A DNA stretch of 64,000 nucleotides, from NCBI GenBank assembly GCA_051362555.1, contig CM120640.1, positions 3,596,001 to 3,660,000 of the forward strand, in the 5' to 3' direction. Under the pieces are notes generated by a model. That model searched no databases, was not told the origin of the DNA, and worked only from the letters and a program-made list of their open reading frames with translations. The stretch is from Lingula anatina. Its lineage: Eukaryota; Animalia; Brachiopoda. Position numbers and translations under genes: made by a program. This document shows, in pieces, positions 2,669 to 43,102 of the stretch; within the stretch, counting starts at the first letter, position 1; each line of letters opens with the position of its first letter.

Positions 2669-2898
2669 CCTTCCCTTGTAGCTACCTTTTACGGCGCGAT
2701 AGGTTGGCGCGATATTAATATCACCTATAAAAGAAAAGAAGAAAACGATTACGATTATTGACTTTGGCTGAGGTCAATATATGGTGTTTTGCAGATCTCA
2801 GAATAGTGATATCGTACCGCACTCAAAGGCTATTTGACCCAGTATAGCACAACAAATGTGGAAAATCTGCTGCAATGTAGTGAACTGACCTGCCTAAT

Positions 2899-5526
2899 AA
2901 GGTCGCGCGTCAAGGTTATTTTCAGTTGCACCCTGGATTACGCACGCTTGCTCCGCAAGGTGTCGCCTGTGGTGGGGGGGCATCACAGCCCATATGGTTA
3001 CTGTGGCGAAGGTGACAGGTACTTCCAAACATTTTTTCATAACTTTCATTTTTCCTTATTCTATTCATGAATTTGATATTTACGGCAATTGAAAATGTGG
3101 CACCGGCAAAAGTGAATCTAGGTGCGTTGACAGGCCGCACAGGTGTCCCCAATTAACCGCCGACAGAGAAGAGACCCCAAACATTAAACAACACAACCTG
3201 TAGATATTGGAAATTTGGAGAAAGTTAAGCAACTGAGGCTTTATTAGATTTGGACAGAAATCGGGGGTAATGCCCAGTGACATGCCAAACCCCTAAGTTC
3301 AAGTCTTGGCCCTTGACACCTGTAACGCACCCCTTAGTCAAGAATCTGAACAAATCAATGTTGGGCAGGTACAGGGTATACTCTATTTTCTACAGGTGTT
3401 TTGTGATTTTATCAACTTGATTGTCAAGTGCCAGACCTTTTGTTCTCAGGTACTAGTAGCAAACTTTATCAGATAACAATCTGACACTAACCAAGCTGCA
3501 CTAACAGCGCTGTAAACCCAGTTATCAATGCTGTCATCTTTACCTGTATCTTTACCGGTATTATGCCAGTGGTACGTTTGATACATTTGAGTAAGGAAAT
3601 ACGCTTTTATGCTTACATTCATTTGTAATACGTTAGCATTAACCTGTTAATAAAAACTTGGAAACTTTCAATGTTATTACACAATAACAGTATATAATGA
3701 TGGGAGATGTTATGATTAAATGCTTAGAAGAATAATAAAAACAAATTATGTGAAATATAAAATGAATTGATTTTATTTGGGTTATTTATTTATTTATTTC
3801 AAACCATTTAATTATCAAACATGAAGCTTATTTTAAGAAACATTCGCAGATATATGAAATATAACCCTGCTGGTACACAGATCTACAGTTCTAAAATGCA
3901 AATACCAAGTACCTTTCACACACCACTCATGAGATGTGAATAATCATATGTATAAAGTAGTAAAAATATCACAAAATGTGTGTAAGCAAGATATTTCTAC
4001 AAGTAACCTCATTAATCAGTCAGGAAACTTCATAATGCGCCCAATAAATGTAGAAATTTGAGCCAGAGAAATTCTACATACAGGCATGACAGATTTACCA
4101 TATATTGCCATCAACCCTTAACTGAATGGGCATAGAAAGAACAAAGTGAGTCTCCCTCCCATTAAAAATGAGAAATAAAAATAAATAAATAAATAACAGA
4201 TACTGTCATTCTTAATACTGAAAAACAATGGCACCTTGCAGCCTTCACTGCCTCACTATTTGCAGACAATGTTCTAGTCACTGTAACTGTGTACTTTTGA
4301 TGAGGCATAGATGCTAGAATAACTTCTTTGAAGTATATTTTGAAGGTCTCTTTTGTCATAAATCTGCCACGTATAACCTGAATGTACAATACATATTGCG
4401 ATTCACACCACAGCAGCTTGTCTTAGTAAGGACTCAACCAGTTTGAAAACTTGTGGCATAGCTTCAGGACAAGATCACACCATCGATCCTTGCTGTGATG
4501 ATGGATCTACTAGTACATTATCTATGTCTTGTCCTCCTAGTTTCTCTAATACCATTTCCCCTGATCTATGCTCACATCAATCTCTACAGCTTTACCAACT
4601 GCTACACAGTTTTTACATCCGAAAGTATAAAGCAAAAATTGTAATAAAGCACTATCAATTTACTTGTTAGATATTGAATCGAGGGCAAGAGAAAAATGCA
4701 GAAACCTCATATCATAATCAAGATAATTGAAAATCAAATATGCATAATCAAATTAATAGCTTTAATTGTACATACTACTGATGATTTAATCTTTTAAACT
4801 TCAGCATAAATTTCATTTGTTAAAGCATAGACACTTTATTAAAATGTGCTTGAACAAATAATAATAATAATAATAAACAACCTGCACACAAGATGGAACA
4901 TGGAGGTCAATTGCCACAAAATAAGTTGATTTGTACTTGGTAGCCTGAGAAATAGTATCAGGTATTAATTTGAGCAGTAAATTGAGTAATAATACCACAG
5001 AGTTAACAATGACACAAGCATATGGTGTTGTGTAACAAAATTCATGCATTACTTGCTGTGGCAGTGTCCTCTTCAACCTATCGTGCACCGCAGGTTTTGA
5101 TTTTCAATGTCATCAAAAATGTTTATTGTTGTTAGTTTGATTTACGTATCTTCTATTCAAATAATATCGTTTGGAAAATAACTAACTGATTTAATTATGC
5201 TTTTGCAACATGAAATCATCATTAACTTTGCCGGTTCACGTGTATACAGTACCTTGCTATCAGTGCTGCTCTTTTCTCCCTAACTCGTCACTGACAGGCT
5301 AACCACATCGTTTCAAAACAACGTTGGTATGCTCCTTTACTTTTGGTGTTGGCAGTTTCGCCCCGGGGACATCGTTTTTGGTTAAAAACAACGTATCGTT
5401 TTCACCCATCTATACATTGCTCCTGTACAAAATGGCCGCTCGCTGCCCCCCCCCCCCCCCCCAAGGGAAAAATCGTAGCACGTGGGTAGTTACGCAAGAC
5501 CTGTGACGTATAACGCGCGCAAGGTT
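2899..5526. mobile_element. Non-autonomous ISL2EU-like (PHIS group) DNA transposon, copy 1
   Basis: Matches 14693-17324 throughout apart from poly-C length (17 vs 21). Termini AAGG...GGTT are flanked by AT on both sides. Carries a decayed SAP+SWIM ORF on the minus strand and a possible THAP remnant (CGTGKSESRCVDRPH, 3096-3140) on the plus strand. Confidence 0.8.
4230..5409 (-). pseudogene. Decayed transposon accessory protein (SAP domain + SWIM zinc-finger region, YqaJ-type ORF); also present in copy 2 at +11794
   Basis: ATG at 5409 gives MGENDTLFLTKNDVPGAKLPTPKVKEHTNVVLKR, then after a frameshift WLACQ*RVREKRAALIAR with a GT donor at 5252. A downstream segment reads CKNCVAVGKAVEIDVSIDQGKWY*, then YFKEVILASMPHQKYTVTV..LSANSEAVKAARCHC (CxC start of a SWIM). 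Stops and frameshifts are present. Confidence 0.65.
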
Positions 5527-6480
5527 ATTTCTGTCCACTGGAGCAGCAATTAGCCATTGGAGAAAACGGGATTTAAAAACTTGTAGTATAACTATCGTAT
5601 AACAGCTTGTCTTCTCCCGGTTAATATTAAAGAAGTTTGTTTTTCACGGTAGCGTTCTGACCTTACACCAGCTCCAATTTAATCGCAATTTGTTCGAGAA
5701 CAAAAGTGAGGATCGTTTACTTTAAACTCCTTGCCATATTGGAGATATTTTGCCAGGTGATTGATGTGATTGCACTCTAAAAATCAGCCGTGAACAGCAC
5801 CGCCTCGGTTAAGGATTCGAAGTACGTTGAGCGGAGCATAAATATAAAGATGGCGTTCACCATAGAACACTTCATTGGGTCCCTTGGCCTTGTGACATTA
5901 AACGCTATTGACGACTAATTTCTAATGCGTATCCTGTCTTATTTTGAAAGTCGGTATGCAGTAATAATCCGTTGAAGTATTTTACTGATTTTAATATTGA
6001 GAGCAAATAAAGCTACCAAACAAAGGCATCGATCTTTTTCATTCTCCCCTGTATGGAAACATGGCCGGCTGTTTAGTTGCTGAGTTTTGTCAATATCGGA
6101 AATAATTGCCGTATTTGACCCCAGGTTAAAAAAGTGCCCCTGCCTCTCTCATCGGTTTCAATTAGTAGACAAGTACTCAAAAGTGGCGGTGGAGGTGTTT
6201 ACCCTATCGATATTTTGTAAGCACCTTCGTCTCAATCAGGTGATTCGACACGGACGCTTGAATCGGGTTTACTAGTGCAGCAGACAAGTCAGTGTTCTGT
6301 CCTATCGTTTGTCTGCTCTGCCCTTGAAGACAATATCGTCATCCGACGGAATGCGACCGGCGGGTAAATTGAGATGAAAAGCAAAGAAACATATAATACC
6401 AAGCTGCTCTGTAACCACTGGTAGGTTTCTAGCCTGCTTTTGGGTATTTATGAATAAAAAAAAACGAATAAATAAAGTAA

Positions 6481-8378: not shown

Positions 8379-10267
8379 AATGGGATATTCTCTCGTTTTT
8401 TCAAAATAGGAAGAGGGTGTCGACAGGGTGACCCTGCATCCCCATATATATTTAATTTATGCGCAGAAATAATAGGCATTTTTATAAGACAGGAAAAAAC
8501 ATTAGAAGAATTGGTGTAGAAGAGAAGAGATAAAATTATTACAATATGCCCATGATACAGTGGTATTTTTAGACGGCTCAGAGAAATCGCTAAAAAGTGC
8601 TTTAGACCTTTTGTTCCAATTTTCCAAATATTCCGGGTTAAAACCAAATATTTCCAAAAGAAAAGCAGTATGGATTGGCTGAAAAATGAATAGTAAGGAA
8701 GTCTTGTGTAGAAATGAAAAATTAGACTGGACAAATGAACCTGTATCTGTTCTAGGTTTTACCTTTACAGCTGAACTTGATTGTATAGAAGAACGCAATT
8801 ATAACATTAAGTTGGCTGTCATTAAAAAAGAGATTAATAACTGGTCAAAAAGGTGTCTATCCACCCTGGGAAAAATAAAGGTGGTTAAATCACTATTGAT
8901 ACCAAAGTTTACTCATCTGTTCACGTCACTACCAGGTCCCAGTGCCCAATGGATAAAAGAGTTTAACTCTATTCTTTTCAAATTCATTTGGGAAAAATGA
9001 TAGGGTATCAATAAAGACAATTATTCAAGACTTCGAAAATGGGGGCTGTAGAATGGTGCATTTGGAATCATATATTAAAGCTTTAAAATTAACTTGGATT
9101 CGCAGATTACTATCGAATACTAACCAATACGGAAGGATTTTTACCGAAATTACAAGCTGTGACATGACGTCGCTCTGTCAGTTCGGGCCTGTATATGCGA
9201 AACAATGCCGGGAAACCACGACAAATTTATTTTGGAAAGAATTATTTTTATATTACTCACAGTATGCTAGCGTAATACAGGAAAATGACCCACAAGATTT
9301 TCTGGAGGCTCCATTGTGGTATAGTCCGAGTATTTTGATCTAAAACAAGGCCGTATTCTTAAAACCATTATATGAGAAGGGCTTCCGGGTGGTGCTCGAC
9401 TTGCTTGATTCAAACGGCAACGTGCTTTCATATAGAGAAATCACGGATGCATACAAAATACGCCTTCCATTTACAAAATATTTTGGCCTAAGAAATGCTA
9501 TCTATAATGCATTTCCCAATTTAAAAGGAATAACAGTTACACAGAAAACTTATAACCTGAAAATACCCAAACCGCTTATGATTATATGGAAAAACAAAAA
9601 AGGCTATTAAGCGATTTATGATACGTTTATTAAAAAAACTGTACGAAACCCCTAAAACTGAAATAAAATGGGAAAGGTTCTTTAATAAAGTAATAACATG
9701 GAATCTTAGCTACAATCGTCTCCTGACAGATATAAAAGAATCCAAACTCAGATGGTTTAAATTTTAATGTATTCATAGAATTCTAGGGACAAAACTCTTA
9801 CTGTTCAAATATAAAATAGTTGATAATCCTCATTGCAATTTATGTAGCACAAGGATGGAAACAATTGAACATCTATTCGTTGATTGTGATCTCGCAAAAA
9901 ACTTGTGGAAGCAAATCAAAAACTGGTTTAGGGAAGAAAAGGGAGCCAATATTCATATTTCTGCATCGGATATTATTCTTGGAAACAATGATGAGAAATT
10001 GAATTTATTAATTTCCCAGGTAAAATATTACATTTACAGTAAATCAAAAAATGGGGGACATCTGTCCTTCAGGGACATCGAATGCTATCTGTGTTAGAAA
10101 AAATGCTGTGCTTATCAAAATATCATATTTATTAATGAAAATGATGAGCCATCAGTAGTAGTTATGTGTGTATGTATGTGTGAGTGTGAGAGAGAAGTAA
10201 GCGAGGGGTAACAAAGAAGTATTGTATACTGTAGTATACATTTCTTAAGTTAAATAAAAAAAAAGAA
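8379..10267 (+). mobile_element. 5'-truncated, decayed L1/Tx1-clade non-LTR retrotransposon
   Basis: RT motifs RGCRQGDPASPYIF, QYAHDT and FSKYSGLKPN, plus a C-terminal zf-RVT (C..C..ETIEHLFVDC), with several stops and frameshifts. A-rich tail; 15-bp TSD AGACTGCTGATTGTG at 8364-8378 and 10268-10282. The empty site survives in unit B at 19466-19480. Confidence 0.93.
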
Positions 10268-10569
10268 AGACTGCTGATTGTGTTACATTGATGGAGTGCG
10301 GCTGCAGCATTGTATATATTGACATTATTGTGTCGAATTCCGTGGACCAGCTAGCACATTAAAAAATCTCTTCGGGTGCCGTGCGACACTTGCAATTTGC
10401 CGAGTTTTAAAATATTCAAAGTTTCTCTTAGTTCTAGGTTGATTGCTGTTGTGGAATAGCGTATATTTGTAATGGTTTATGAGAACTCTCATCAGTTTCT
10501 GCTGTCTGTTTCTTCTTTTCCCATTCAAAAAGAAAGGCAGACGATGTCAACTGTTTAACCTTTGCTGCT

Positions 10570-10785
10570 TTATTTGACACTGCAGTCATATAACGTGGTG
10601 CTTCTGAATATAGCCTTTTTTAACTTCAGGAGGTACATATTCACTATCACATACATCCCTGTTGGACTATGTCTTTCATAGGCTCTACATGGAATCATTT
10701 CCTCAGTTTTGTATGTAAGTTTCTCTGTATTTTTTGTTGTATTTATTATGGTCTCAGTTGCCTTTGTGGTAACGTCTAAGTCCAT
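10570..10785 (-). pseudogene. Frameshifted counterpart of the unidentified 96-aa ORF at 19902-20192
   Basis: Nucleotide similarity to 19990-20242, with frame-breaking indels relative to it. Product unknown. Confidence 0.25.
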
Positions 10786-11964
10786 CTACTAGCCAGTCAA
10801 AAGATCACAAATTTCTTTCACCTGTTTTCCTCTTTTTTATTTTTTATTTATTTTTTATTTTTATTTATTTTTATTTATTTTGCTCCTTCTTTGGCCTCTT
10901 TTGCCTCAAATTATTAGCTTTACTTTGCCTGCTATATTTTCTATTTTAGTCACGATCAACTTAAAACTGGTAACACGAAGTACTTGGATTTCAAATGATG
11001 CATATTTTCCTTGAAATATTCTGTAAAAAGAAATCGTAAAAGCAAGTAGCAATTTATTTCGAGTAATAAATTAGAATTTTAATTTGTATTAAGGGGGGCG
11101 GGGCTGGGGGCTTAATTTTTCAATCAGTCCGGAAGGAGGTCACGAAAAAATATATGAATGTTATCACAGGGGGGTCTCGAATTTTTTGTCATACGGGCAT
11201 TTTTCCTCCCCCCCCCCCCCCCCCCAACCCCTCCGACTTAAATATTGACCGGTGCCTAAATGACTGAGTGTAAAAGAAAGCTGAAAACAACTTTTCGATT
11301 AGGCAAAAAAAACTAGCCTATTTTGGGTTATTCATAAAGATTAATTGATTAATTAATTAATTCATTAATTTAGTTGTCAAAAGATAACCCACCCACAAAA
11401 TAATTTTTTAGTTGATTTCAAAATTCATTTTGGCTAAAAATAGCCCTAAATGGAAAAAAAGTTACTCATAACTTTTGTCACTTGTTTTTGTCAAGATGGC
11501 TGTGCGTAGAGTGATACCCAAGGCCAGAAATAATTAGGCCCTACATAACCTTTTTACGCAAAAAAAAAACAAAGAAGTGCCTAAAATTACCCCCGTCACC
11601 AGCCAATAATGTTGAATCGCGGCTGCTAGTAATAAAAGGGAGAAGCAATCCGTTCGAAGGATCAGTGTTTTCCCTGATAAATTGTCATGTTCACCGCCGA
11701 ACTTATGTTGCTGGCACATCTTTATCTCTGAGTTCGGGTTTGTCACGTTGCACGCTATCTATAGCAGACTATTGATAAACTTACTGTTTATTTTGTTGCT
11801 GTGACAGCGTCGATTACAGGTTGTAGGAAGTTTTAGGTGGGATAAAGTATTTTCACATTCATCCTTCCAAGTCAGAATCGAACTTACACTTGTTGAGCTG
11901 ACAACATTTGATTTTTGGTTTTTGAAAGAATAAGTTGAATAAGGAAACGCCCTTAAATATTACA

Positions 11965-12904
11965 ATGAGCGACGAAGCAAATGTCAGCTGGGGTGAAAGT
12001 GATGAAAATGGCATAGAACAGCTAAGACGCAAACTTACGGAACTAAATGGCCAACGCCCAGTATCCATGGATGATGGCTACGGTAGTCAGCGATCATCGA
12101 CAATGTCCGACATTTTAACAGAGGACGTCCTAGCCAGCGTTGGTCAAGGAGAACAGAGCAAGTTCGCAGAACCCGGTGCCGCCAATCCGCGATCTTCAAT
12201 GGGAAGTAGTGGTGGGAGAGCCTCTTCCTCTCCTTTCAGTCGCCAAAATTATGTTACTGTAAATGAGAGCCAAGGCGTTCACGTTGGGGACAAATATAAG
12301 ACCGTTTACGTTTACCAGTACACCTACGGCCCTGGTTCGGTAGTGTACCATCACAAACCCACTTCTACAGGTAACCACCTCGTTAATAGAAAAAAACCGG
12401 GCTTAATGAAACAATTAACTGTGAACTGATTCACAGAAATTTGATAAATCAAATTGCGTACACACATGTTTATTTCTTTACATCACAGAGCTATATGTTT
12501 GATTCCAGATCATAAAATTTTGATCTATTTACTGAAAGTATTCAAACATTTGCTTTCACTTTTCAGAAGAAGAACAAGGTGCCACAGGCGAGGTAAAAAG
12601 AATTTCTGTTAACTTATCATACAAAGAGGACTCTGGTCCCAACGGTGATACATTTTCCCAGGTTCTAAACCAGAAGATTGAGTCCAATTTTCACGTGAAA
12701 AACTGCAGAGTCATAGTAAAGCAGCTGCCTGCCATGTCTTTTGATATAGAAGCGGACGAAGTCACAGCCGCCAAACTGACAAGCGACGTAGGGATGGAAA
12801 AGTTGAGAAATATTATTACTGAGGTGCTGAATGAAATGCCCAACGCTTGTTTCGGGAAGCAACTGGAAGGCCGAAAAATGAAAGTAGAAATAGTTTATGG
12901 ATGA
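11965..12904 (+). CDS. RHIM-like-motif protein, paralog A (247 aa; exons 11965-12370, 12567-12904)
   Basis: The phase-1 intron (ACAG|GTAAC ... TTTTCAG|AA) joins two open frames. Indels relative to paralog B preserve the frame. Motifs: DDGYGS (12070-12087) and VTVNESQGVHVGDKYK (VHVG at 12277-12288). The upstream TTG at 11935 corresponds to the ATG of paralog B. Confidence 0.8.
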
Positions 12905-13335
12905 ATTAATGTTGTTATTTTTTAATATCCAGACAGGCTCAATACAACTGATACAAGCTAGTCCTATTCGGCTCAGGGACAGAATTACTGGCATCGGCAC
13001 ACAGCTTCCCGCTACTATTACTCGGTACTACCCCAGATAAAGCATGTGCGAGAAAAGTGATAGAAACTGTAATTAAAGAGGACGCCACCATAATATGACC
13101 TATATATATTGTATTATATTATAGGCCTATATATATATATGACTGCTTTCTCAAGGCAGAAGTACCATGATAAATTTTATGGTGGATCCAGGACATTAAA
13201 AAGGAGGCTGGCAAATTTTTTTGACGCATTTCGCTCCTTTCATATTAAATTTAAATTTATTCATTTTTGGGAAGTGGTTCAATTTGCAGCATATTGTAAT
13301 AGTTTTATGGGGTAAAAATTAAACTCTGCTCATGT

Positions 13336-13530
13336 TGATTGGGAATGAGTCCGCCATTTTGTTTTGGAAAAACCCTCCTCCTTCACACGCCTATTTTTGG
13401 GCCCTGTTATAAACGGGATTTTCAAAAGGTCAGATTGACGCAGGAAGGTCGGGAAGTTGACCTGTTTACACCAGAATTCACTTATTATCTCTAGACTTTA
13501 TCTTTGACGGGACATTACTTCCTGGTTTGA
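13336..13530. promoter_or_regulatory. Enhancer/promoter-like module downstream of paralog A (CCAAT, YY1, kB-like and ETS-like sites)
   Basis: GATTGG; CCGCCATTTT (13351-13360); GGAAAAACCC, the reverse complement of GGGTTTTTCC (13366-13375); GGGATTTTCA (13415-13424); CAGGAAG, GGGAAGT and ACTTCCTGG. The module is conserved in unit B. Confidence 0.45.
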
Positions 13531-13893
13531 TGTGCTAAATAGGGCATTGTGAAATGCCAAAATTAATACAGAAGTTAATTAGATATCATTTAACAATCAG
13601 TACGCGTCTTCAGATATGAAGAGATTTAATTTATGACTAGCGCGCCAGAAGTTAATAAAGTAAAAGTAATGGTATTGTCTTTGTATTAATTTTCAGCTTA
13701 TAAAGTTGTAATATATTTTATTAAGCTCATTTCTTTTGAATTCATATATCGTAGTTCTTTTATACAGTATACTTTGAAGTAAAACATGCTGTGAAAGGTG
13801 GGGAGTCGTATTGTGTATTTTGGTATTTTGTCAGTGTCAAGTCGTTTATCAGTGTCAAATAAGCTGTAATCTTGTCTATGTATTTACTCTGTC

Positions 13894-13929
<36 letters not shown>

Positions 13930-14692
13930 CAGGAGGTCATTTATCATTGTGACTTTGCCATGTCATGATATAATCGAGATTTACATTATTATATTAATGA
14001 CTACAACATATGTATTTATAATGAAATAAAATGATAATTTCCAACCTTATTTTTTAAACCCAACAACAGTTGCTCCCGAAGGCTCATCAAGTGTACATTT
14101 CTGCTGTATTTCTGCTGCGGTTTCTGTTCTTCCCTTTTTTTACTGTTTACGTTGTTAATTTCTGTAGAATTTGTGTCAAAAACGGTTAATGGGCTTACTA
14201 TCACCCGTATTCGGCTATTTGTATTACAAAAGGAATTTCCTAATAGGTCTAGATTGAATCTAGAAGAACAGGAATTTTTCCAGTTTATAACAGGATCTTA
14301 GTAAGAAAAATCTCCCCCGAAGAGCCTTTTTGGAAGCAGCGCTTCGTAAACGAATTCAGACTTGAGAAACTGTAAAATGAAGGGCGGACCTTTTTAAAAA
14401 GTCGGACAAGAAGCTCAAATCTAGCACACAGAACGCACGCACCGTGTCTAAATAAACATGAGTGTCGCTTTCATAACGTAATTAACCCGTTATGCGAACG
14501 TTAAAATTAAGCAATTAAACCTTCAATTCTCTTTTCACCCACATTCCCCCTGGAATCAAATCAAAGAGAAAAAATCCTGCTCCATGAAGTAGTCGATCTT
14601 TTCATTACTCGGTATGACGTGATCCGTACTTAATGGTGTTGCATTGTCCTTTTCTTCATCAATATGGCCACTGTGCCTTCCCCTCTTTCAAT

Positions 14693-17324
14693 AAGGTCGC
14701 GCGTCAAGGTTATTTTCAGTTGCACCCTGGATTACGCACGCTTGCTCCGCAAGGTGTCGCCTGTGGTGGGGGGGCATCACAGCCCATATGGTTACTGTGG
14801 CGAAGGTGACAGGTACTTCCAAACATTTTTTCATAACTTTCATTTTTCCTTATTCTATTCATGAATTTGATATTTACGGCAATTGAAAATGTGGCACCGG
14901 CAAAAGTGAATCTAGGTGCGTTGACAGGCCGCACAGGTGTCCCCAATTAACCGCCGACAGAGAAGAGACCCCAAACATTAAACAACACAACCTGTAGATA
15001 TTGGAAATTTGGAGAAAGTTAAGCAACTGAGGCTTTATTAGATTTGGACAGAAATCGGGGGTAATGCCCAGTGACATGCCAAACCCCTAAGTTCAAGTCT
15101 TGGCCCTTGACACCTGTAACGCACCCCTTAGTCAAGAATCTGAACAAATCAATGTTGGGCAGGTACAGGGTATACTCTATTTTCTACAGGTGTTTTGTGA
15201 TTTTATCAACTTGATTGTCAAGTGCCAGACCTTTTGTTCTCAGGTACTAGTAGCAAACTTTATCAGATAACAATCTGACACTAACCAAGCTGCACTAACA
15301 GCGCTGTAAACCCAGTTATCAATGCTGTCATCTTTACCTGTATCTTTACCGGTATTATGCCAGTGGTACGTTTGATACATTTGAGTAAGGAAATACGCTT
15401 TTATGCTTACATTCATTTGTAATACGTTAGCATTAACCTGTTAATAAAAACTTGGAAACTTTCAATGTTATTACACAATAACAGTATATAATGATGGGAG
15501 ATGTTATGATTAAATGCTTAGAAGAATAATAAAAACAAATTATGTGAAATATAAAATGAATTGATTTTATTTGGGTTATTTATTTATTTATTTCAAACCA
15601 TTTAATTATCAAACATGAAGCTTATTTTAAGAAACATTCGCAGATATATGAAATATAACCCTGCTGGTACACAGATCTACAGTTCTAAAATGCAAATACC
15701 AAGTACCTTTCACACACCACTCATGAGATGTGAATAATCATATGTATAAAGTAGTAAAAATATCACAAAATGTGTGTAAGCAAGATATTTCTACAAGTAA
15801 CCTCATTAATCAGTCAGGAAACTTCATAATGCGCCCAATAAATGTAGAAATTTGAGCCAGAGAAATTCTACATACAGGCATGACAGATTTACCATATATT
15901 GCCATCAACCCTTAACTGAATGGGCATAGAAAGAACAAAGTGAGTCTCCCTCCCATTAAAAATGAGAAATAAAAATAAATAAATAAATAACAGATACTGT
16001 CATTCTTAATACTGAAAAACAATGGCACCTTGCAGCCTTCACTGCCTCACTATTTGCAGACAATGTTCTAGTCACTGTAACTGTGTACTTTTGATGAGGC
16101 ATAGATGCTAGAATAACTTCTTTGAAGTATATTTTGAAGGTCTCTTTTGTCATAAATCTGCCACGTATAACCTGAATGTACAATACATATTGCGATTCAC
16201 ACCACAGCAGCTTGTCTTAGTAAGGACTCAACCAGTTTGAAAACTTGTGGCATAGCTTCAGGACAAGATCACACCATCGATCCTTGCTGTGATGATGGAT
16301 CTACTAGTACATTATCTATGTCTTGTCCTCCTAGTTTCTCTAATACCATTTCCCCTGATCTATGCTCACATCAATCTCTACAGCTTTACCAACTGCTACA
16401 CAGTTTTTACATCCGAAAGTATAAAGCAAAAATTGTAATAAAGCACTATCAATTTACTTGTTAGATATTGAATCGAGGGCAAGAGAAAAATGCAGAAACC
16501 TCATATCATAATCAAGATAATTGAAAATCAAATATGCATAATCAAATTAATAGCTTTAATTGTACATACTACTGATGATTTAATCTTTTAAACTTCAGCA
16601 TAAATTTCATTTGTTAAAGCATAGACACTTTATTAAAATGTGCTTGAACAAATAATAATAATAATAATAAACAACCTGCACACAAGATGGAACATGGAGG
16701 TCAATTGCCACAAAATAAGTTGATTTGTACTTGGTAGCCTGAGAAATAGTATCAGGTATTAATTTGAGCAGTAAATTGAGTAATAATACCACAGAGTTAA
16801 CAATGACACAAGCATATGGTGTTGTGTAACAAAATTCATGCATTACTTGCTGTGGCAGTGTCCTCTTCAACCTATCGTGCACCGCAGGTTTTGATTTTCA
16901 ATGTCATCAAAAATGTTTATTGTTGTTAGTTTGATTTACGTATCTTCTATTCAAATAATATCGTTTGGAAAATAACTAACTGATTTAATTATGCTTTTGC
17001 AACATGAAATCATCATTAACTTTGCCGGTTCACGTGTATACAGTACCTTGCTATCAGTGCTGCTCTTTTCTCCCTAACTCGTCACTGACAGGCTAACCAC
17101 ATCGTTTCAAAACAACGTTGGTATGCTCCTTTACTTTTGGTGTTGGCAGTTTCGCCCCGGGGACATCGTTTTTGGTTAAAAACAACGTATCGTTTTCACC
17201 CATCTATACATTGCTCCTGTACAAAATGGCCGCTCGCTGCCCCCCCCCCCCCCCCCCCCCAAGGGAAAAATCGTAGCACGTGGGTAGTTACGCAAGACCT
17301 GTGACGTATAACGCGCGCAAGGTT
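14693..17324. mobile_element. Non-autonomous ISL2EU-like DNA transposon, copy 2
   Basis: Identical to copy 1 by eye except for the poly-C run. AT flanks at 14691-14692 and 17325-17326. The empty site is visible in unit B (TTTTCAACTATAGTC, ~24125-24139). Confidence 0.85.
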
Positions 17325-17369
17325 ATTATAGTCTTTAAACCTTGAGTTCACAAAATTGTTTAAGCCTTA

Positions 17370-17920
17370 TGCCCCTATTTCACACAGACCACGAATCCCA
17401 CGAATGGCCATGAATTGACAAATTTCACGATTCGTGGTTGAATCGTAATCGGTTCGTGACGTTCTTAACAGATTCGTATATATTCGTAGTCAGTTCTTGC
17501 ACTTCTTGACCAACAGGAATTGGTGGCAAAAACTTTGATGCCCCTATTTCACACAGACCACGAATCCCACGAATCGCCAGGAGTTGAAAATTTCAGGATT
17601 CGTGGTTGAATCGTAATCAGTTCGTAAAGTTCTTAACAGATTCGTATATAATCGTAGTCAGTTCTTGGAATTCTTGATCAATCGGGAATTCGTGCAAAAA
17701 ATTTGAGCTGTTCAAAGTTTTGGCCACGAACTCCCGATTCCAAAAAATCGTATTGAATTTCTGGACAATATTCGTGCGATTCCAACCGAATCCTACGAAT
17801 ATTCGTGAGCGTGTCGAATTAGACCAGAAAATTGGCAAAATCTCACGAATCCTCACGCATCCTGAAATTTGTCAATTCCTGGTGATTCGTGGGATTCGTG
17901 GTCTGTGTAAAATAGGGGCC
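17370..17920. mobile_element. Tourist/PIF-Harbinger-like MITE with a duplicated left arm
   Basis: TIR GCCCCTATTTCACACAGACCACGAATCCCACGAAT occurs at 17371 and again at 17540, with its reverse complement ending at 17919. TTA TSD at 17367-17369 and 17921-17923. Unit B has a single CCTTA at the empty site (~24171). Confidence 0.85.
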
Positions 17921-18287
17921 TTACGCATAGACATCGGCGGAATAAATAATTAAATTTAATAAGAAACGATAAATTTTAACGAGAAAAAGTTATTATTTGA
18001 AATCAGCGGGCACGTCTCATGAATCTTATATAGTGTTGTTGTTGTCTGCTTTTCCCGCAGTTTTAAGTAGGTCACCAGTGACTTTGCAATGTCAGAGAGA
18101 GCTCCGTCAGTTAAAATCTCTTAAGAGATTTTAACAAAAAACCGTACGTTTAGGAAAAAAACCCTGGATTAACTTTGAATGCAGGAATGGGGTCGTTGGC
18201 CATTGGTAAGTACGGGAAAATTGCCGTTTTTTCCAGGAAAATCCAATTTTTGGCCAAAACGAAGAGTTATTATGACTTTAAGCAGCA

Positions 18288-18365
18288 TTTTAATGGCATC
18301 TGCTGTCTTGCTGATTGCCTCATTTCACAGAAGAAAATGGCGGGGTGTTTCGTATCGCTTTTGCT
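18288..18365. repeat. Short inverted copy of 24868-24937
   Basis: TTTTAATGGCATCTGC...ATTGCCTCATTTCACAGAAGAAAATGGCGGGGTGTTTCGTATCG is the reverse complement of CGATACAAAACACCCCGCCATTTTCTTGTGTGAAATGAGGCAATGCAGATGCCATTAAAA, allowing a small indel. Confidence 0.8.
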
Positions 18366-18646
18366 GTATACAAAACATCCATCGAACAACATGTACAATA
18401 TATATGAGTGCTCCTAAAAGATGTTAAAAATATAAATAAGTCACCTATAACTTCAATTTGACAATATTTCCTTGTACCAGCTAACAGCCTCTTTAATACT
18501 TCTCAGGATAAGAAATTATTTTATTATCTCCTACTTCTTACCAACCATTCACTGGCCAATCTCATATTTTAAACCTACCCCCCCCCCCCCCCCCCCCCGA
18601 ACTTCCAATGCAAGCTAAATAAACAACCCATACACTTGTAATCATG

Positions 18647-18935
18647 GAGGGCATTCAAACAGATGATCCTTGGAACTACTGGTCCGTGGATCAAATATAG
18701 CAGACCCTACATTAAAAAAACGCCGACAATCAGCTGATGGTCTCCCCACTTCCGCACGCACCATTAAACGGATTTAATCTCGGCTCTGAGGTTTAATCGC
18801 TAGACCCCTGCAAGGACAGCGCATTCAGAGGTGGGGAGACCATTAGTGAATTAGTCAGCTCTTCTTTCATGTAGGGATGGCCATATTTGATCCGCGGATC
18901 ACAAGATCCAAGGATCGTCTGTTGTGAATGCCCTC
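18647..18935. mobile_element. Palindromic MITE
   Basis: TIRs GAGGGCATTCA / TGAATGCCCTC with long complementary arms. Absent from the paralogous position at ~27445. Confidence 0.8.
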
Positions 18936-19901
18936 ATGGTCTTAATACAGTGCTGGACCCTTCATACACGTATCATGGGTACAACATACAGCACCTCTTA
19001 TCACATGAACTGAGCTATCTATTTATATTGCAACTTCCTCCACCTTGATCAAAATACATGAACGTTGTCACTGATTTAGAGAAAAAAATTAAACATTCGA
19101 TAATAATTTCATACAAGATCAAGAAATGCTTATAAAATATTCTTAAACCAGCCAAGACCAGCCATAATTCTTCGAATAAAATCTTTGTGTCATCTTGTCT
19201 GAGCAATTCAAAGAATGAAATTTCTTACAATATGTCATATAAATTTCTAAATATTAAGAAAAAAACTTTGAATTAATTTGGAAACTGAGGCTCCTTGTAC
19301 ATGGAGGGAGTCTGGTCTCCATTAGATTCATACAGATCAAGGTAAGGCTGATGTAAGTGGGTCAATGTATAGAACAGGGCTTGCCTGTACAAAGTACGGG
19401 CAATAATGACGTCACACATTTGAAAAAAAAAAAGATATGTTCTAACTAGTAGGGTGGAAGTCGTAAGACTATTGATTGTGTTACGTTGACGGAGTGCAGC
19501 TGCAGCATTGTATATTTACACTATTGTGTTGAATTATTAACAAATCTTGTCTGATTTAATTTTTATTATATATTTCAATTTTTTTCAATATACTAGGTTC
19601 CTTTCATAAGAATGAATGGAAAAAATTCTGTATCTACAGTTAAACCCTGTCTTATTATAGAGTGCCTACACTGAAGAGAAAAATCAACAATGTTTACATT
19701 CATAATTTTTTTAATCATTATATTTTAACAAGAATCTTTTCATTAAAATATCCACATGAATGGAGTGTCTTTGACATACTTTTTATGCCATGCTTTTATA
19801 TAATTATAATACTTTTATATAATTAATTACTGGAACCCCTTTACGGGGCAGGACAAAACTGTTTTGAACAAACAGTATCTATGCTCATCACCCTTATTAA
19901 G

Positions 19902-20192
19902 TCATTCAAAATCATTTTCTGAATAATCGCTTGACGATTTAATAGAACTGTTATCAATTTCTGCTGGCTGTGCCTTCTTCCATTCAGATAGAAAGGCAGC
20001 CTGTTTTACCTTTGCTACTTTATTTAACACTGCAGTCATATAAAGTGGTGCTTCCAACTTCTCAATATACAGTGTAGCCTTTTTAACTTCAGGAAGTACA
20101 TATTCACTATCATATCCTTGTTGGACTATGTCTTTAAGAGGCTCTACGACTACGTGAAATCTCAGTTTTGTATGTAATGCTTCTCTGATCAT
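19902..20192 (-). CDS. Unidentified 96-aa ORF, divergent from paralog B; may be a decayed gene or TE fragment
   Basis: ATG-started ORF with protein-like composition. Its counterpart in unit A is frameshifted and no good splice acceptor was found. Confidence 0.25.
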   Translation of the reverse strand: MIREALHTKLRFHVVVEPLKDIVQQGYDSEYVLPEVKKATLYIEKLEAPLYMTAVLNKVAKVKQAAFLSEWKKAQPAEIDNSSIKSSSDYSENDFE

Positions 20193-20283
20193 ATTTGTTG
20201 TACTTATTATTGCCTCAGTTGCCTTAGTTGTCTAAGTCCATCTACTAGCCAGTCAAAAGATCACAAATTTCTTTCACCTGTTT

Positions 20284-20323
<40 letters not shown>

Positions 20324-21180
20324 ATCAGCTTTAGTTTGCCTGATATATTTTCTATATAAGTCACGATCAACTCTGTTTAATTAAAGCTGGCAACACGCAG
20401 TACTTGGATTTCAAATGATGCATCTTTTGCTTGAAATATTCTGTAAAAAGAAATCGTTAATGCAAGTAGCAATTTATTTCCAGTAACAAATTAGGATTAT
20501 AATTTTTATTGAGGGGGGACCCGAATTTTTCAATCGATACGGAAGTGGGTCCCGAAAAATATAAATGCTATCAGAGGGGAGTCTCGAATTTTTTGTCATA
20601 CGGGCATTTTTCCTCCACCCCACCCCCTCCGAATTAAATAATGACCGGTGCCTAAATGACTGAGTGTAAAAGAAAGCTGGAAACAACTTTTCGATTAGGC
20701 AAAAAACTAGCCTATTTTGGGTTATCCATTAAGATTAATTAATTGGATTAATTGGATGTGCGTAAAGTGATACCCAAGACCAGAAATAATTGCATAACCT
20801 TTCTACGCAAAAAAAAAAGGGGGGGGGGGCTAAAATTCCCCCCGTCACCAGCCAATAATAATCACGTCTGCTTGTAATAAAAGGGAGAAGCCATTCGTTC
20901 GAGCGAACAATATTTTTGCTGATAAATTGCCATGTTCACTCACTACTGCACTTTCCTGAATAGGTAGCTGACACATCGCTATCTGTGAGCTCGGGTGTTG
21001 TCACGTTGCACGCTATCTATAGCTAACTGTTGATAAACAGTAACTGTGACAGTGTCGATTACAGATAGCAGGAAGTTTTAGATGGGATAAATACTTTCAC
21101 ATTCCTTCTTCCAAGTCAGAATCGAACTTAACACTTGTTGAGCTGTCTACATTTAATTTTCGGTTTTTGAAAGGAATAAG

Positions 21181-22228
21181 ATGAATAAGGAAACGCCCTT
21201 AAATATTAAAGTGAGCGACGAAGATAATGTCAGCGAGGATGAAAGTGATGAAAATGGCGATGAATTCAAACAAGGTATAGAACAGCTGAGACGCAAACTT
21301 AAAAATACAGAAGTAAAGGCTCAACGCCCAGTATCCAAGGATGATGGCTACGGTAGTCAGCGTTCATCGACAAGGTCCGACGTCTCGTCTTGTCGGCTAT
21401 CTGCACTCGAAGCAGACATCTTAACAGAGGACGTCCTAGCCAGCGTTGGTCAAGGAAAACAGAGCAAGACCGCGGAACCTGGTGCTAATTCGCTGTCTTC
21501 TATGGGAAGTAGTGTTGGGAGAGCTTCGTCCTCTCCGAATTTCAGTCGCCAAAGTAATTTCACCGCCACTGTAAAGGAGAGCCAAGGCGTTCACGTTGGG
21601 GACAAATTTAAGACCGTTAACGTTCACCACCACACCTACGGCCCTGGCTCGGTAGTGCACATTCACCAACAAACTTCTACATGTACAGGTAACGATGTCG
21701 TTAAATAGAAAAAAACGGCCTTAATGAAATAATAAACAATAAACTTTTAAATGATTCACGGAAATGTGAATAATCAAATTGCTCACATCTATTTATTTGT
21801 TTACATCACTATGCTATATTGTTTGATTCCAGATTATAAAATATTGATACTCGTCTATTTACTTAAAGTATTCAAACATATGCTTTCACTTTTCAGAAGA
21901 AGAACAAGGTGCCACAGGCAAGGTGAAAAGAATTTCTGTGAAATTATTAAACAAAGAGGACTCAGGTCCCAACGGTGATACATTTTCCCAGGTTCTAAAC
22001 CAGAAGATTGAGTCCAATTTTCACGTGAAAAACTGCAGAGTCATAGTAAAGCAGCTGCCTGCCATGTCTTTTGATATAGAAGCGGACGACGTCACAGCCG
22101 CCAAACTGACAAGCGACGTGGGGATGGAAAAGTTGAGAAATATTATCACTGAGATGCTGAATGACAACGCTTGTTTCGGGACGCAACTGGAAGGCCGAGA
22201 AATAAAAGTAGAAATAGTTTATGGATGA
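21181..22228 (+). CDS. RHIM-like-motif protein, paralog B (279 aa; exons 21181-21688, 21897-22228)
   Basis: ATG at 21181 and the same phase-1 intron as paralog A. DDGYGS at 21340-21357; ATVKESQGVHVGDKFKTVNVHHH (VHVG at 21589-21600). The C-terminal ~100-aa alpha/beta domain is nearly identical to that of A. Confidence 0.85.
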
Positions 22229-22639
22229 ATTAATGTTGTTAGTTTTTATCCAGACAGGCTCAATACAACTGACACAAGCTAGTCCTATTAGGCTCAGGGA
22301 CAGAATTACTGGCATCGACACACAGCTTCCCGCTTCTGTTACTCGGTACTACCCCAGATGAAGCATGTGCGAGAAAAGTGATAGAAACTGTAATTAAAGA
22401 GGACGCCACCATAATATGACCTATGTATATAGTATAATATTATATATCGGAGTACTTAAAGGAGAAGTACGATAATAAAGTTTATGGAGGATCCAGGACA
22501 TTAAAAAGGAGGCTGGCAAATTCTTTTGACACCTTCCGCTTCTTTGCTATAGATTTTAATTTATTCATTTTTGGAAAGTGGATCTATTTGCAGCATATTG
22601 TAATAGTTTTATGGGGTAAAGATCTAACTCTGCTCATGT

Positions 22640-22850
22640 TGATTGGGACTGAGTCCGCCATTTTGTTTTGGAAAAACCTCCCCACCCACTCGCCAATGTT
22701 TGAGGCCTGTTACAAACGGGACTTTCCAACGTTCAGGTTGAAGCAGGAAGGTCGGGAAGTTGACCTGCTTACACCAGGATTTACTTATTATCTCTAGACT
22801 TTTCCCCTGACGGGACAATAAGGGGGAACTTACTACACTATACTTCCTGG
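22640..22850. promoter_or_regulatory. Enhancer/promoter-like module downstream of paralog B with a canonical kB site
   Basis: GGGACTTTCC at 22718-22727, CCGCCATTTT at 22655-22664, GATTGG, CAGGAAG and ACTTCCTGG. Confidence 0.5.
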
Positions 22851-23510
22851 TCTGATGCGCTACATTGTGAAATATCAGAGTTAATACAAAAGTTAATTAA
22901 GTATCATTTAATTATCAGAAGTATGCGACTTCAGATATGAAGAGATTTAATTTATGACGAGCGCGCCAGAAGTAAATAGAATAAAAGTAATGGTATTATC
23001 TTTGTATTAAGTTTCACCCTATACAGTTGTAAGATATTCTTATTAAGCACATTTTTCTTGAATTCAGATATCCCAGTTCTACTAGTAATATACAATAGAC
23101 TTAGAAAAAAATTCTGCTGTGAGAGTTGAGGAGTCGTATTGTGTATTTGTGTATTTTGTCAAGTCGGCTATCAGTGTCAGGTCGTTTATCAGTCTCAAAT
23201 AAGCTGTAATCTTGTCAATGTATTTACTCAGTCGTTTCTTTCTTTCTTTTTTTTTTAAATTTACCTGGAGGTCATTTATCATTCCGACTTTGCCGCGCAT
23301 GATTTTATGTAAAAGGGTTATGTCATGATCGAGATTTACATTATCATATCAATGACTACAGCATATGTATATATTTATATGATGAAATAAAATGATAAAT
23401 TTCTACATCATTTGTTTACCCAACAACCGTTGCTCCCAAAGACTCATCAAGGATACATTTTTGCTACAAGTTGGGTTGTATCACAATATGTTGCGGTTTC
23501 TGTTCTTTTT

Positions 23511-23547
<37 letters not shown>

Positions 23548-24945
23548 TTTTTATTTATTTTATTTTTTTTTTACTGTTAACGTTGTTAATTTCTGTAGAA
23601 TTTGCGTCAAAAACAGATAATGGGCCTACTGTCACCCGTATTCGGCTATTTGTATTTCAAAAGGAATTCCCTAACAGGTCGAGATTGAATCATGAAGAAC
23701 AGGAAGTTTACCAGTTTATAACAGGATCTTGAAATGAAAAAATCTCCCCCGATGAGCCTTTTTGGAGACAGCGCTTCGTAAACAAATTCAGACTTGAGAA
23801 ACTGTAAACTGAAGGGCGGATCTTTTTTAAAAGTCGGACAAAAAGCCCAACTCCAGCACACGGTACACACGCACCGTGTCTAAATAAATGTGATTGTCGC
23901 TTTCGTAATATACTTAACCCGTTCTACGAGCGTTAAAATTAAGCAATTAAACCTTAAATATTCTTTTCTCCCACATTCTCCCTGGAAGAAAATCAAAGAG
24001 AAATAATCTGTGTCATGAAGAATTCGATCTTTATTGTTATTACTCGATATGAAGTGATCCGTACTTTATGCTGGTGCATTGTCCTTTTTTTTCTTCACAA
24101 ATGAGCCCACTGTGCCTTTTCCCCTTTTCAACTATAGTCTTCAAACCTTGAGTTCACAAGATCGCGTAAGCCTTACAGCTACACATCCGTGGAATAAATA
24201 GATGAATTTAATAAGAAACGATAAACAAAGCCACTCAGGTCCCCTCTCTAATTTTAACGAGAAAAAGTTATTTTTCGAAATCACGGGGCACGCCTCGATA
24301 GCAAGTCTCGTTATTTTCCACGTGTTATGATATCAGACGAAACACGTGACTGCATGATTATAAATTTTATGAACAAATTTTATTCAACTTGTCACACACT
24401 GATAGATCTACTGGAGATAGTGGGGGAAGGTATATGACGTGCACCTATCACGTGATCGTGACGATTTCAGTAAGAGATGCTAATACACGTACACCCAGCA
24501 GTTTGCACGTATCAAGGAGTTTGTGAATCTATTTCATGAAAAGCGCTTCTTTGAAAAATTTTATTTAAAAATGAATTTTTAGTTGAGAAACTACAACTTG
24601 GTCAACTGCCACTGGCCTTCTATGTGATAGGGGGTCTGTCTGTGTGCACGGAAGGCCCTTTTCACGTCCAACGGTATACTTACTGATACATTCTGGCCCG
24701 GTTCACAATGAGCTTCCACTTTGACTTAACATCAGGAAGGGGACGTGAGAGGGAGAAAAACCAAGATAAGGGCACTCCATGGGATTTTCCCGCCAAAATT
24801 AATATCTAGAGATTCTCTCTGCGCCTTTGAAAATCCCCAACAGTCATAATCATGTCTTGTGGAGCTAAAACAAAAACGATACAAAACACCCCGCCATTTT
24901 CTTGTGTGAAATGAGGCAATGCAGATGCCATTAAAATTCCATTTA

Positions 24946-28015: not shown

Positions 28016-43102
<15,087 letters not shown>

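What the first reader, a model, noticed from the sequence alone, without database searches (positions are those of the whole stretch)
11965..22228. Candidate new innate-immune amyloid adaptor pair: degron + RHIM-like motif + possible TRADD-N-like domain
Seen: two intact two-exon paralogs (247 and 279 aa) with frame-preserving indels. Each has an acidic/Ser-rich disordered N-terminus, then (V/A)TV(N/K)ESQGVHVGDK(Y/F)KTV(Y/N)V...TYGPGSVV(Y/H), then a conserved ~100-aa alpha/beta domain. Established: RHIMs (RIPK1/RIPK3/TRIF/ZBP1 core (I/V)Q(I/V/L)G) and insect cryptic RHIMs (PGRP-LE VHIG, Imd LHFG, PGRP-LC VxxG, Pirk) are preceded by a beta-strand-S-x-x pattern and nucleate signalling amyloids upstream of NF-kB or cell death. 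Inference: VHVG here is such a core. The C-terminal helix-strand-strand-helix-helix-strand pattern resembles invertebrate TRADD-N-like domains (weak, by eye only). With no kinase, death, TIR or PGRP domain, these may be minimal amyloid adaptors or Pirk-like feedback inhibitors not matching a gene I recognise.
Basis: partly seen in the sequence, partly recalled or inferred. Interest (0 to 1): 0.88.

Follow-up and report, generated by a model that had tools for sequence, protein, structure and literature searches.

The report
Brachiopod RHIM-plus-TRADD-N gene pair
Two duplicated, intact genes of the lamp shell Lingula encode a small unstudied protein that joins a likely amyloid-forming immune motif (RHIM type) to a probable TRADD-N signalling domain, so it may tune inflammation or cell-death signalling in a way not yet described.

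Summary
In detail: two intact two-exon paralogs (247 and 279 aa) in a tandem duplication, matching uncharacterised Lingula anatina LOC112042323/LOC106151129. A B-like transcript is spliced as predicted in public RNA; copy A has almost no reads. Coding indels keep the frame (7 of 7) and pN/pS is about 0.5.

The motif G-V-H-V-G-D sits in the register of the RIPK RHIM aliphatic tetrad (fully in A, Ala at -8 in B) with the His of Imd-type cryptic RHIMs. Natural variants (IHVG, probably VHFG) keep h-H-h-G. Pfam RHIM does not hit, and amyloid formation is untested.

Exon 2 folds as a ferredoxin-like domain with a split second helix. TRADD-N clusters rank first in both ESM Atlas searches (below the naming bar), and a P-x-x-S turn fits the NCOA6 clade. 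Sequence-profile tests were negative or weak.

Best reading (0.45): a short-lived RHIM-docking modulator of RIPK1/Imd-like signalling, in which a RHIM replaces the CARD/DED usually paired with invertebrate TRADD-N. It is more likely a dampener than an activator.

The parts
11965..12370 (+). Copy A exon 1 (coding): acidic/Ser-rich low-complexity N-terminus, degron-like motif, RHIM-like motif
   Evidence: alignment; RNA depth at most 0.3 in 4 of 4 runs
12070..12087 (+). Copy A DDGYGS, beta-TrCP-degron-like (consensus recalled), residues 36-41
   Evidence: 1-5% by shuffle
12253..12345 (+). Copy A RHIM-like region: Val at -8, -6, 0, +2; G-V-H-V-G core at 12274-12288; then a beta-prone strand, a GPG turn and SVV
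12371..12566 (+). Copy A intron, GT-AG, phase 1
   Evidence: no joint seen for this copy itself
12567..12904 (+). Copy A exon 2 (coding): TRADD-N-like ferredoxin-fold domain 12596-12901; P-x-x-S turn 12728-12742
21093..21104 (-). IRF-element-like site (1 mismatch to a recalled consensus) at the 5' end of RNA coverage of copy B; A's counterpart at 11849-11860 has 2 mismatches
   Evidence: the only site with at most 1 mismatch among 19 with at most 2 (11.3 expected); a consensus match only
21181..21688 (+). Copy B exon 1 (coding); DDGYGS at 21340-21357
21562..21657 (+). Copy B RHIM-like region: Ala at -8, Val at -6, 0, +2; G-V-H-V-G core at 21586-21600
   Evidence: read variants 21586 G>A, 21595 G>T, 21607 T>A
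21689..21896 (+). Copy B intron, GT-AG, phase 1
   Evidence: joint 21679->21894 in 16, 7 and 2 reads, read as this intron in an allele six bases shorter before the donor, like P0001/P0002
21897..22228 (+). Copy B exon 2 (coding): TRADD-N-like domain 21926-22225; P-A-M-S turn 22058-22069; S-x-x-G-M-E-K-L helix start 22112-22135
   Evidence: protein identical to this part of P0001/P0002
22229..23410 (+). Copy B 3' UTR: 10 ATTTA pentamers (3.8 expected from the window mean), one exact kappa-B-type site at 22718-22727, AATAAA at 23386
   Evidence: kappa-B sites not enriched in the window: 3 vs 2.9 expected
10476..14691 (+). Duplicated block holding copy A; partner block 19938-24131 holds copy B (77-86% identity); similarity resumes after the inserted element at 17328

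Best explanation
These are two intact paralogs of a spliced Lingula gene whose product is likely a short-lived modulator of RHIM-amyloid immune signalling, predicted to dock through its G-V-H-V-G motif onto RHIM fibrils and to present a probable TRADD-N domain. Steps. (1) Shown: two-exon gene, tandem duplication, purifying selection overall, low and variable expression. (2) Predicted: exon 2 is a ferredoxin-like fold with a split second helix, most like the NCOA6 clade of TRADD-N, with the family serine in a P-x-x-S turn. (3) Inferred: the motif in the low-complexity arm forms RHIM-type cross-beta stacks, with itself or with the RHIM of the Lingula RIPK1-like kinase or an Imd-like protein. (4) Inferred: the RHIM does the recruiting job that a CARD, DED or death domain does in other invertebrate TRADD-N proteins. 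(5) Inferred, weakest: with no effector domain, a degron-like motif, an AU-rich 3' UTR and an IRF-like site at the start, it acts as an inducible, Pirk-like feedback dampener or decoy rather than an activator (about 3:2). Component odds: real gene 0.97, TRADD-N superfamily 0.75, working RHIM-type motif 0.6.
For: Gene. RHIM register: the DMS paper defines aliphatic residues at -8, -6, 0, +2 with flanking Gly (RIPK3 V450, I452, G457, V458, V460, G461, D462). Copy A has V, V, G, V, V, G, D there: pattern in 0.4% of 20,000 shuffles and 5 times in 84,317 residues of bacterial ORFs. Core G-h-x-h-G signature; shrimp Imd VHIG and fly Imd LHFG. P0001 has IHVG, and X7-X9 reads change the third core codon's first base towards Phe, so the core stays h-H-h-G. 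TRADD-N: Atlas feature hits 1 and 3 are NCOA6_TRADD-N/TRADD-like_N clusters (0.81, 0.79); structure hit 1 is the TRADD-like_N part of a DED protein, TM 0.61 over 103 residues, against 0.47-0.58 over 84-91 for other folds. AF2 model pLDDT 74 with helices 64-70 and 73-88 fits the kinked-helix description. P-x-x-S-h-x-h and S-x-x-G-h-E-K-L match by eye the published alignment (1-1.6% and 0.1% by shuffle, patterns chosen after looking). Context: Lingula has 31-33 TRADD-N proteins, often CARD/DED/Death + TRADD-N; in amphioxus RHIMs occupy positions usually held by CARD-like domains; Lingula RIPK1-like proteins keep a RHIM.
Against: No Pfam RHIM, TRADD-like_N or NCOA6_TRADD-N hit was listed (filters drop most matches above E about 0.1). 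Both Atlas results are under the tool's naming bars; a third of shuffled proteins reach a feature score of 0.8, and the two searches count as one source. A profile of 48 cyanobacterial TRADD-like_N domains scores the domain 0.1 bit, matched by 364 of 1000 shuffles; hhalign probability 0.4%. A glocal profile gives B 20.8 (3 of 500 shuffles and 8 of 2216 decoys as high) but A 14.9 (75 of 2216; reversed A 14.4), with members at 60 or more, and the alignment is out of register. No BLAST alignment to the one bacterial NCOA6-type domain compared. The canonical G-S turn is absent. TRADD-N usually lies between two globular domains, here it is terminal. Three of four sequences have Ala at -8, the core has His for Gln, the Asn-x-apolar extension starts later than in RIPKs, and Lys residues follow the core, which would disfavour in-register homo-stacks (principle). 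The motif region is not more conserved than non-coding DNA between A and B. phmmer of the motifs finds no RIPK fibril chain in the PDB. The Gly before the core appears changed in X7-X9 reads. No infection data; copy A barely expressed in 4 of 4 runs.
Confidence: 0.45

Rival explanations
1. Exon 2 is a TRADD-N-like domain but the VHVG motif is fortuitous. The protein is a stand-alone interaction module with a disordered, phospho-regulated arm, for example a small NCOA6-like nuclear cofactor.
For: The closest feature cluster is NCOA6_TRADD-N; NCOA6 is a low-complexity protein with one TRADD-N domain and a transcription role. VxxG alone is common (3-4 per protein, 2.6 per 270 aa in bacterial ORFs). 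Motif-region pN equals the non-coding rate. A basic LRRKL patch lies near the N-terminus (sequence).
Against: Full RHIM register in copy A; the ESQG(V/I)HVGDK and TYGPGSVV blocks are nearly invariant in 4 of 4 sequences while their flanks vary; core changes are conservative.
Confidence: 0.22
2. The RHIM-like motif is real, but exon 2 is another ferredoxin-like domain (SEA/SoMP-, ACT- or RRM-like), so the protein is a RHIM adaptor of a different kind.
Against: A true PF20694 domain modelled as a control (pLDDT 85) also lists no TRADD-N entry and gives the same generic classes, so these searches do not discriminate. The Atlas ranks TRADD-N first twice.
Confidence: 0.15
3. The gene is a truncated offshoot of a larger Lingula TRADD-N gene, weakly constrained and without a role of its own; copy A is on its way to silence.
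For: Invertebrate TRADD-N genes are shuffled next to retrotransposons, and a LINE reverse-transcriptase remnant lies just upstream of block A (zf-RVT). pN/pS is only about 0.5. Copy A has almost no reads. No homologue outside Lingula among 74 and 85 candidates.
Against: Frame kept through 7 of 7 indels and in the three listed coding indels of the RNA alleles. Complete transcript with poly(A) signal. Exon 2 protein identical between copy B and both RefSeq proteins. No longer parent protein was found (weak tests).
Confidence: 0.12
4. Exon 2 derives from a transposase (IS200/Y1-like).
Confidence: 0.02

Closest known systems
Invertebrate TRADD-N expansions (Kaur et al. 2021, PMC8195603): Lingula CARD+TRADD-N, DED+TRADD-N and solo TRADD-N proteins; bivalve NCOA6-clade expansion
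   Same: Predicted RRM-like two-layer fold with split helix; Ser in the beta2-beta3 turn in the P-x-x-S form of the NCOA6 clade; sessile marine host with a known expansion; interaction module placed N-terminal of TRADD-N; nearby mobile elements.
   Different: No death-fold or effector domain; TRADD-N is C-terminal; short insertions after strand 3 and before strand 4; a RHIM-like motif stands where CARD/DED usually is. Neither RefSeq accession is in the paper's supplements as searched (file 4 was cut when stored, file 13 not searched). The Lingula members seen there are DEDD2-clade or bacterial-like, not NCOA6-clade.
RHIM of RIPK1/RIPK3/ZBP1/TRIF (Pfam PF12721)
   Same: G-h-x-h-G-D core; aliphatic residues at -8/-6/0/+2 in copy A; set in a low-complexity region.
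   Different: His instead of Gln; Ala at -8 in three of four sequences; Lys-rich downstream strand; no Pfam hit; no kinase, Z-alpha, TIR or death domain.
Arthropod cryptic RHIM proteins Imd, PGRP-LC/LE and Pirk
   Same: h-H-h-G core as in shrimp Imd (VHIG) and fly Imd (LHFG). Imd is likewise a non-globular arm plus one C-terminal interaction domain; Pirk is an effector-less RHIM-bearing inhibitor.
   Different: The C-terminal domain is TRADD-N-like, not a death or PGRP domain; no sequence homology shown; no partner or amyloid test; spiralian host.
Vertebrate TRADD
   Same: Two-module adaptor with a TRADD-N domain and one homotypic recruitment module.
   Different: Order reversed and the death domain replaced by a RHIM-like motif; TRAF binding untested, and MATH domains are not universal partners of TRADD-N.

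Membership tests
RHIM / cryptic RHIM | Core (V/I)-Q-(V/I/L/C)-G (canonical RHIM) | tested here: not met
   Core is VHVG or IHVG, His for Gln (definition)
RHIM / cryptic RHIM | Cryptic core (V/I)xxG with invariant Gly; G-h-x-h-G signature | tested here: met
   4 of 4 proteins (definitions). VxxG alone is common
RHIM / cryptic RHIM | Aliphatic tetrad at -8, -6, 0, +2 | tested here: inconclusive
   Full in copy A; Ala at -8 in B, P0001 and P0002
RHIM / cryptic RHIM | Match to Pfam RHIM model or to solved RHIM chains | tested here: not met
   No hit listed; short divergent RHIMs are known to escape profiles
RHIM / cryptic RHIM | Flanked by unstructured sequence | tested here: inconclusive
   N-terminal arm 18-19% Ser with low beta propensity; whole-protein Atlas pLDDT 0.51; no disorder predictor run
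RHIM / cryptic RHIM | Core-dependent amyloid formation and homotypic binding | not testable with these tools
   Needs experiment
TRADD-N superfamily (PF09034/PF20694/PF13820) | RRM/ferredoxin-like beta-alpha-beta-beta-alpha-beta fold with kinked helices | tested here: met
   AF2 single-sequence model, pLDDT 74; ferredoxin-like hits; split second helix; first helix not shown kinked
TRADD-N superfamily (PF09034/PF20694/PF13820) | uS motif (tiny residue + Ser) in the beta2-beta3 turn | tested here: inconclusive
   Ser present before strand 3 as P-A-M-S, like NCOA6-clade P-x-x-S (by eye); the residue before Ser is Met, not tiny; another register would put P-A at G-S
TRADD-N superfamily (PF09034/PF20694/PF13820) | Significant sequence-profile match | tested here: not met
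   Pfam; own cyanobacterial profile; an NCOA6-clade profile could not be built
TRADD-N superfamily (PF09034/PF20694/PF13820) | Closest structural or embedding neighbour is TRADD-N | tested here: inconclusive
   Rank 1 in both Atlas searches but under the naming bars; PDB searches uninformative by control
TRADD-N superfamily (PF09034/PF20694/PF13820) | Binding of a TRAF MATH domain (vertebrate TRADD) | not testable with these tools
   No Lingula TRAF sequence in hand
beta-TrCP degron | D-(S/D)-G-h-x-S consensus (recalled) | tested here: met
   DDGYGS in 4 of 4 proteins; 1-5% by shuffle; function not tested

The most novel reading that the evidence does not exclude
Lingula has a minimal amyloid adaptor in which a RHIM replaces the death-fold domain of the invertebrate 'death fold + TRADD-N' unit: a TRADD equivalent recruited by prion-like templating. 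It would be a non-kinase RHIM partner for spiralian RIPK1, show Imd-type cryptic RHIM signalling outside arthropods, and join two immune toolkits (amyloid motifs and TRADD-N) so far described apart. A bacterial NLR-like protein with TRADD-N followed by amyloid-like repeats (L293) hints that the pairing recurs.
Probability: 0.4. Interest if true: 0.78.

Novelty: new variant of a known kind. Interest (0 to 1): 0.56.

Why it matters
RHIM amyloid signalling is studied in vertebrates, arthropods, fungi and bacteria. For spiralians, one paper reports no RHIM-bearing PGRP or Imd in molluscs and brachiopods and no RHIM gene in two nemerteans, while another finds a RHIM on the Lingula and zebra mussel RIPK1-like kinases, which leaves the partners open. 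A small RHIM + TRADD-N protein supplies a testable partner or regulator. It also offers a two-module system for asking what invertebrate TRADD-N domains bind when no effector is attached. Full-text searches did not list this pairing: 'RHIM + TRADD-N + invertebrate' 0 papers; 'TRADD-N + RHIM' 6 papers, none on it by title or abstract; 'Lingula anatina + RHIM' 6 papers, none on it by title or abstract. The Lingula immune survey of Gerdol et al. 2018 was not read and could mention these genes. The reach is limited: the gene is so far known from one genus only.

Tried and rejected
No whole genome was held for the window, so copy number and partners in Lingula could not be counted. No RNA holder was listed by index; raw reads were laid instead. 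Word-based homologue searches gave only P0001 among 74 and 85 candidates and no candidate for the motif in proteins of 476-2000 aa; these are weak for distant kin. Pfam, NCBIfam and PDB sequence searches gave nothing significant; the best PDB hit of the motif is a pectate lyase at E=5. Foldseek against PDB and BFVD: no match at E<=0.001. VIA-align did not list the TRADD-N entries among the rows shown for the query or for a true TRADD-like_N control, so that absence is uninformative. The cyanobacterial TRADD-like_N set held 48 loci; 38 of the 48 went into alignment A3, leaving out partial or near-duplicate rows; tests were negative or weak, and this is probably the wrong clade. PF20694 was not found in 401 genomes of the phylum of G037. 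PF13820 passed its cut-off in 1 of 401 and 1 of 301 genomes, too few for a profile. The domain as query against 37 bacterial genomes gave only E>0.1. kappa-B sites are not enriched. TRAF2-type (P/S/A/T)-x-(Q/E)-E sites at the exon junction (consensus recalled) are too common to count. A recalled likeness to the PGRP-LC motif could not be checked (0 papers; Kleino et al. 2017 not held). Transposase origin rejected (see rivals). The minus-strand frame at 19905-20231 is broken in block A and had no reads in 4 of 4 runs, so it is not part of this gene.

Full report
1. The observation. The window holds two copies of a two-exon gene on the + strand: A (11965-12370, 12567-12904; 247 aa) and B (21181-21688, 21897-22228; 279 aa), each with a GT-AG phase-1 intron and an open frame. 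They lie in duplicated blocks 10476-14691 and 19938-24131 of 77-86% identity. A 2.6-kb element sits at the right end of block A and similarity resumes beyond it. Exon 2 finds one protein among 74 candidates, Lingula anatina LOC112042323; its cluster holds a second uncharacterised locus, LOC106151129. Both are 271 aa and B-like, with exon 2 identical to B's at protein level. So the window comes from a Lingula genome (inference from that match), and the genes are annotated but unnamed. No whole genome was held.

2. Is it a working gene? Between A and B, 7 of 7 coding indels are multiples of three against 7 of 32 in intron and flanks (p=2e-4). pN is 0.079 and pS 0.154 over 244 codons (p=0.004). 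The domain has pN 0.038 against 0.12 in non-coding DNA, but its pS is also low (0.062) and low divergence runs on into the 3' UTR, so gene conversion may contribute. Seven of nine listed RNA runs were laid. Five cover B and two do not; the intron is skipped in 16, 7 and 2 reads of X7, X8 and X9. The joint is reported as 21679 to 21894, which I read as the predicted intron in an allele six bases shorter before the donor, as in P0001/P0002. Coverage starts near 21090 and ends near 23400, next to an AATAAA at 23386; no upstream joint was listed, so the two-exon model looks complete at this depth. Caveat: X7-X9 reads are 85-99% alike and mix letters of A and B, so they show a diverged allele or orthologue; only X2 (8 of 18 reads at 99% or more) and X1 point to B itself, at low depth. 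Copy A exon 1 had depth of at most 0.3 in 4 of 4 runs.

3. The motif. VxxG alone means little (3-4 per protein). A sharper, independent yardstick comes from a deep mutational scan of RIPK1/RIPK3 (bioRxiv 10.64898/2026.02.19.706818, passages): nucleation depends on aliphatic residues at -8, -6, 0 and +2 of the core, with Gly on either side. Copy A has Val at all four, Gly at -1 and +3 and Asp at +4, as RIPK3 does; this pattern arises in 0.4% of 20,000 shuffles and 5 times in 84,317 residues of bacterial ORFs. B, P0001 and P0002 have Ala at -8 and otherwise match (1.2-1.5% by shuffle without that position). RHIM, fungal PP and bacterial BASS3 share G-h-Q-h-G (bioRxiv 10.1101/2020.01.06.895854, passages). 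Here His replaces Gln, as in the cores of shrimp Imd (VHIG) and fly Imd (LHFG) (PMC10268257, passages). Variation in the core is conservative: IHVG in P0001, and a first-base change giving probably VHFG in 23 of 23 X7 reads (only 40 of 209 variant rows were shown, so other changes in these codons may be hidden). I put a working RHIM-type motif at about 0.6.

4. The domain. AlphaFold2 from one sequence gives pLDDT 74 and the order strand 10-17, helix 26-41, strands 46-51 and 57-62, helices 64-70 and 73-88, strand 103-108: a ferredoxin-like fold with a split second helix. Kaur et al. 2021 (PMC8195603; passages and section 3 parts 4, 5, 7) describe TRADD-N as such a fold with kinked helices and a Ser in the strand 2-3 turn. 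In the ESM Atlas, residues 160-271 of P0001 rank NCOA6_TRADD-N/TRADD-like_N clusters first and third by features (0.81, 0.79), and a TRADD-like_N domain first by structure (TM 0.61 over 103 residues; others 0.47-0.58 over 84-91). Both are below the tool's naming bars and count as one source. By eye against the paper's alignment (supplement 2, parts 198-200), the turn P-A-M-S-F-D-I fits the P-x-x-S-h-x-h form of the NCOA6 clade, and S-D-V-G-M-E-K-L resembles a helix start common in the DEDD2 and cyanobacterial clades (1-1.6% and 0.1% by shuffle, chosen after looking). Objective sequence tests do not confirm this. Pfam is silent. A profile of 48 cyanobacterial PF20694 domains gives 0.1 bit (364 of 1000 shuffles as high), hhalign against 38 of them 0.4%, and a glocal profile a weak signal for B only. 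An NCOA6-clade profile could not be built. PDB fold searches list generic ferredoxin-like proteins, but so does a true PF20694 control model, so they neither support nor oppose. I put TRADD-N superfamily at about 0.75.

5. How it most likely works. The two assignments lean on each other. Lingula has 31-33 TRADD-N proteins, many with an N-terminal CARD, DED or death domain (I saw 61 of 65 Lingula mentions in supplement 4, which was cut when stored; neither RefSeq accession was found). In amphioxus, RHIMs stand where CARD-like domains usually do (PMC4262963, parts 1-2 of 4). A RHIM before a TRADD-N is thus the expected swap. Lingula RIPK1-like proteins keep a RHIM (PMC12119088, passages; the supplement search left 19 of 31 files unsearched and found nothing), which supplies a possible partner. 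I infer that the arm is templated onto RHIM fibrils and the domain then recruits or occludes a partner. The sign is uncertain. There is no effector domain; DDGYGS resembles a beta-TrCP degron (consensus recalled; 4 of 4 proteins; 1-5% by shuffle); each 3' region has 10 ATTTA against 3.7-3.8 expected, near the 95th percentile of the window (the two copies are not independent); the window's best match to a recalled IRF element lies at B's start; and expression is low and uneven. These fit a short-lived, inducible dampener like Pirk slightly better than an activator, about 3:2. kappa-B sites are not enriched. None of this is functional evidence.

6. Known versus new. The parts are known kinds; the combination was not listed in the full-text searches (listings and abstract starts only). 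Kleino et al. 2017 was not held and Gerdol et al. 2018 was not read; bioRxiv supplements were closed, and figures with RHIM alignments could not be seen. By the tests run, the protein cannot be filed as a canonical RHIM protein (His core, no Pfam hit) or as a proven TRADD-N member; it reads as a cryptic-RHIM, TRADD-N-like protein. Other papers seen: PMC9835746, PMC13506858, PMC9387487 (passages).

7. Verdict. A real, spliced, Lingula-restricted (as far as found) gene pair with a plausible new adaptor architecture. Best explanation 0.45; novelty: new variant of a known kind; interest 0.56.

Noticed in passing
window 2896-5529 and 14690-17327: Two copies of a 2.6-kb element, 99.85% identical, with imperfect terminal inverted repeats; absent from the matching site in block B. 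It yields a spliced minus-strand RNA (introns about 16412-17047 and 16737-17046) with no long ORF in the isoform tested: a young non-autonomous transposon or lncRNA.
   Followed up: partly
L293:4515-7409 (minus; G1038, same class as G037): Bacterial NLR-like protein, cut at the contig end: NCOA6-type TRADD-N, then two repeats of an h-V-G-R-D-K-I motif in beta-prone sequence that looks like a bacterial amyloid signalling motif (by eye), then NB-ARC and TPRs. TRADD-N next to an amyloid-like motif, as in this finding.
   Followed up: partly
window 28019-38950 (minus): Multi-exon gene with GRAM, RabGAP-TBC and EF-hand domains (TBC1D8/9-like by domain order; name recalled). A 71-bp tandem array at 34253-34891 repeats part of a TBC exon, including its splice donor.
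   Followed up: no
window 8683-10094: Fragmented LINE-type reverse transcriptase remnant (zf-RVT hit) just upstream of block A.
   Followed up: no
window 44198-44665 and 54768-55442: Glutaredoxin exon, and a fibrinogen C-terminal (FReD) exon.
   Followed up: no
window 1433-2773 (minus): 447-codon open frame, low-complexity and Ser/Pro/Arg-rich, with no Pfam hit; probably a large exon of another gene.
   Followed up: no
window 19905-20231 (minus) and about 10440-10770: A 109-codon open frame at the left end of block B whose counterpart in block A is broken; no reads, no Pfam hit; possibly a decayed exon.
   Followed up: partly
RNA runs X7-X9 on window 21088-23415: Reads differ from copy B at many fixed sites and mix features of A and B, which suggests a diverged Lingula population or cryptic species with one ancestral-type copy, or gene conversion between the copies.
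   Followed up: no
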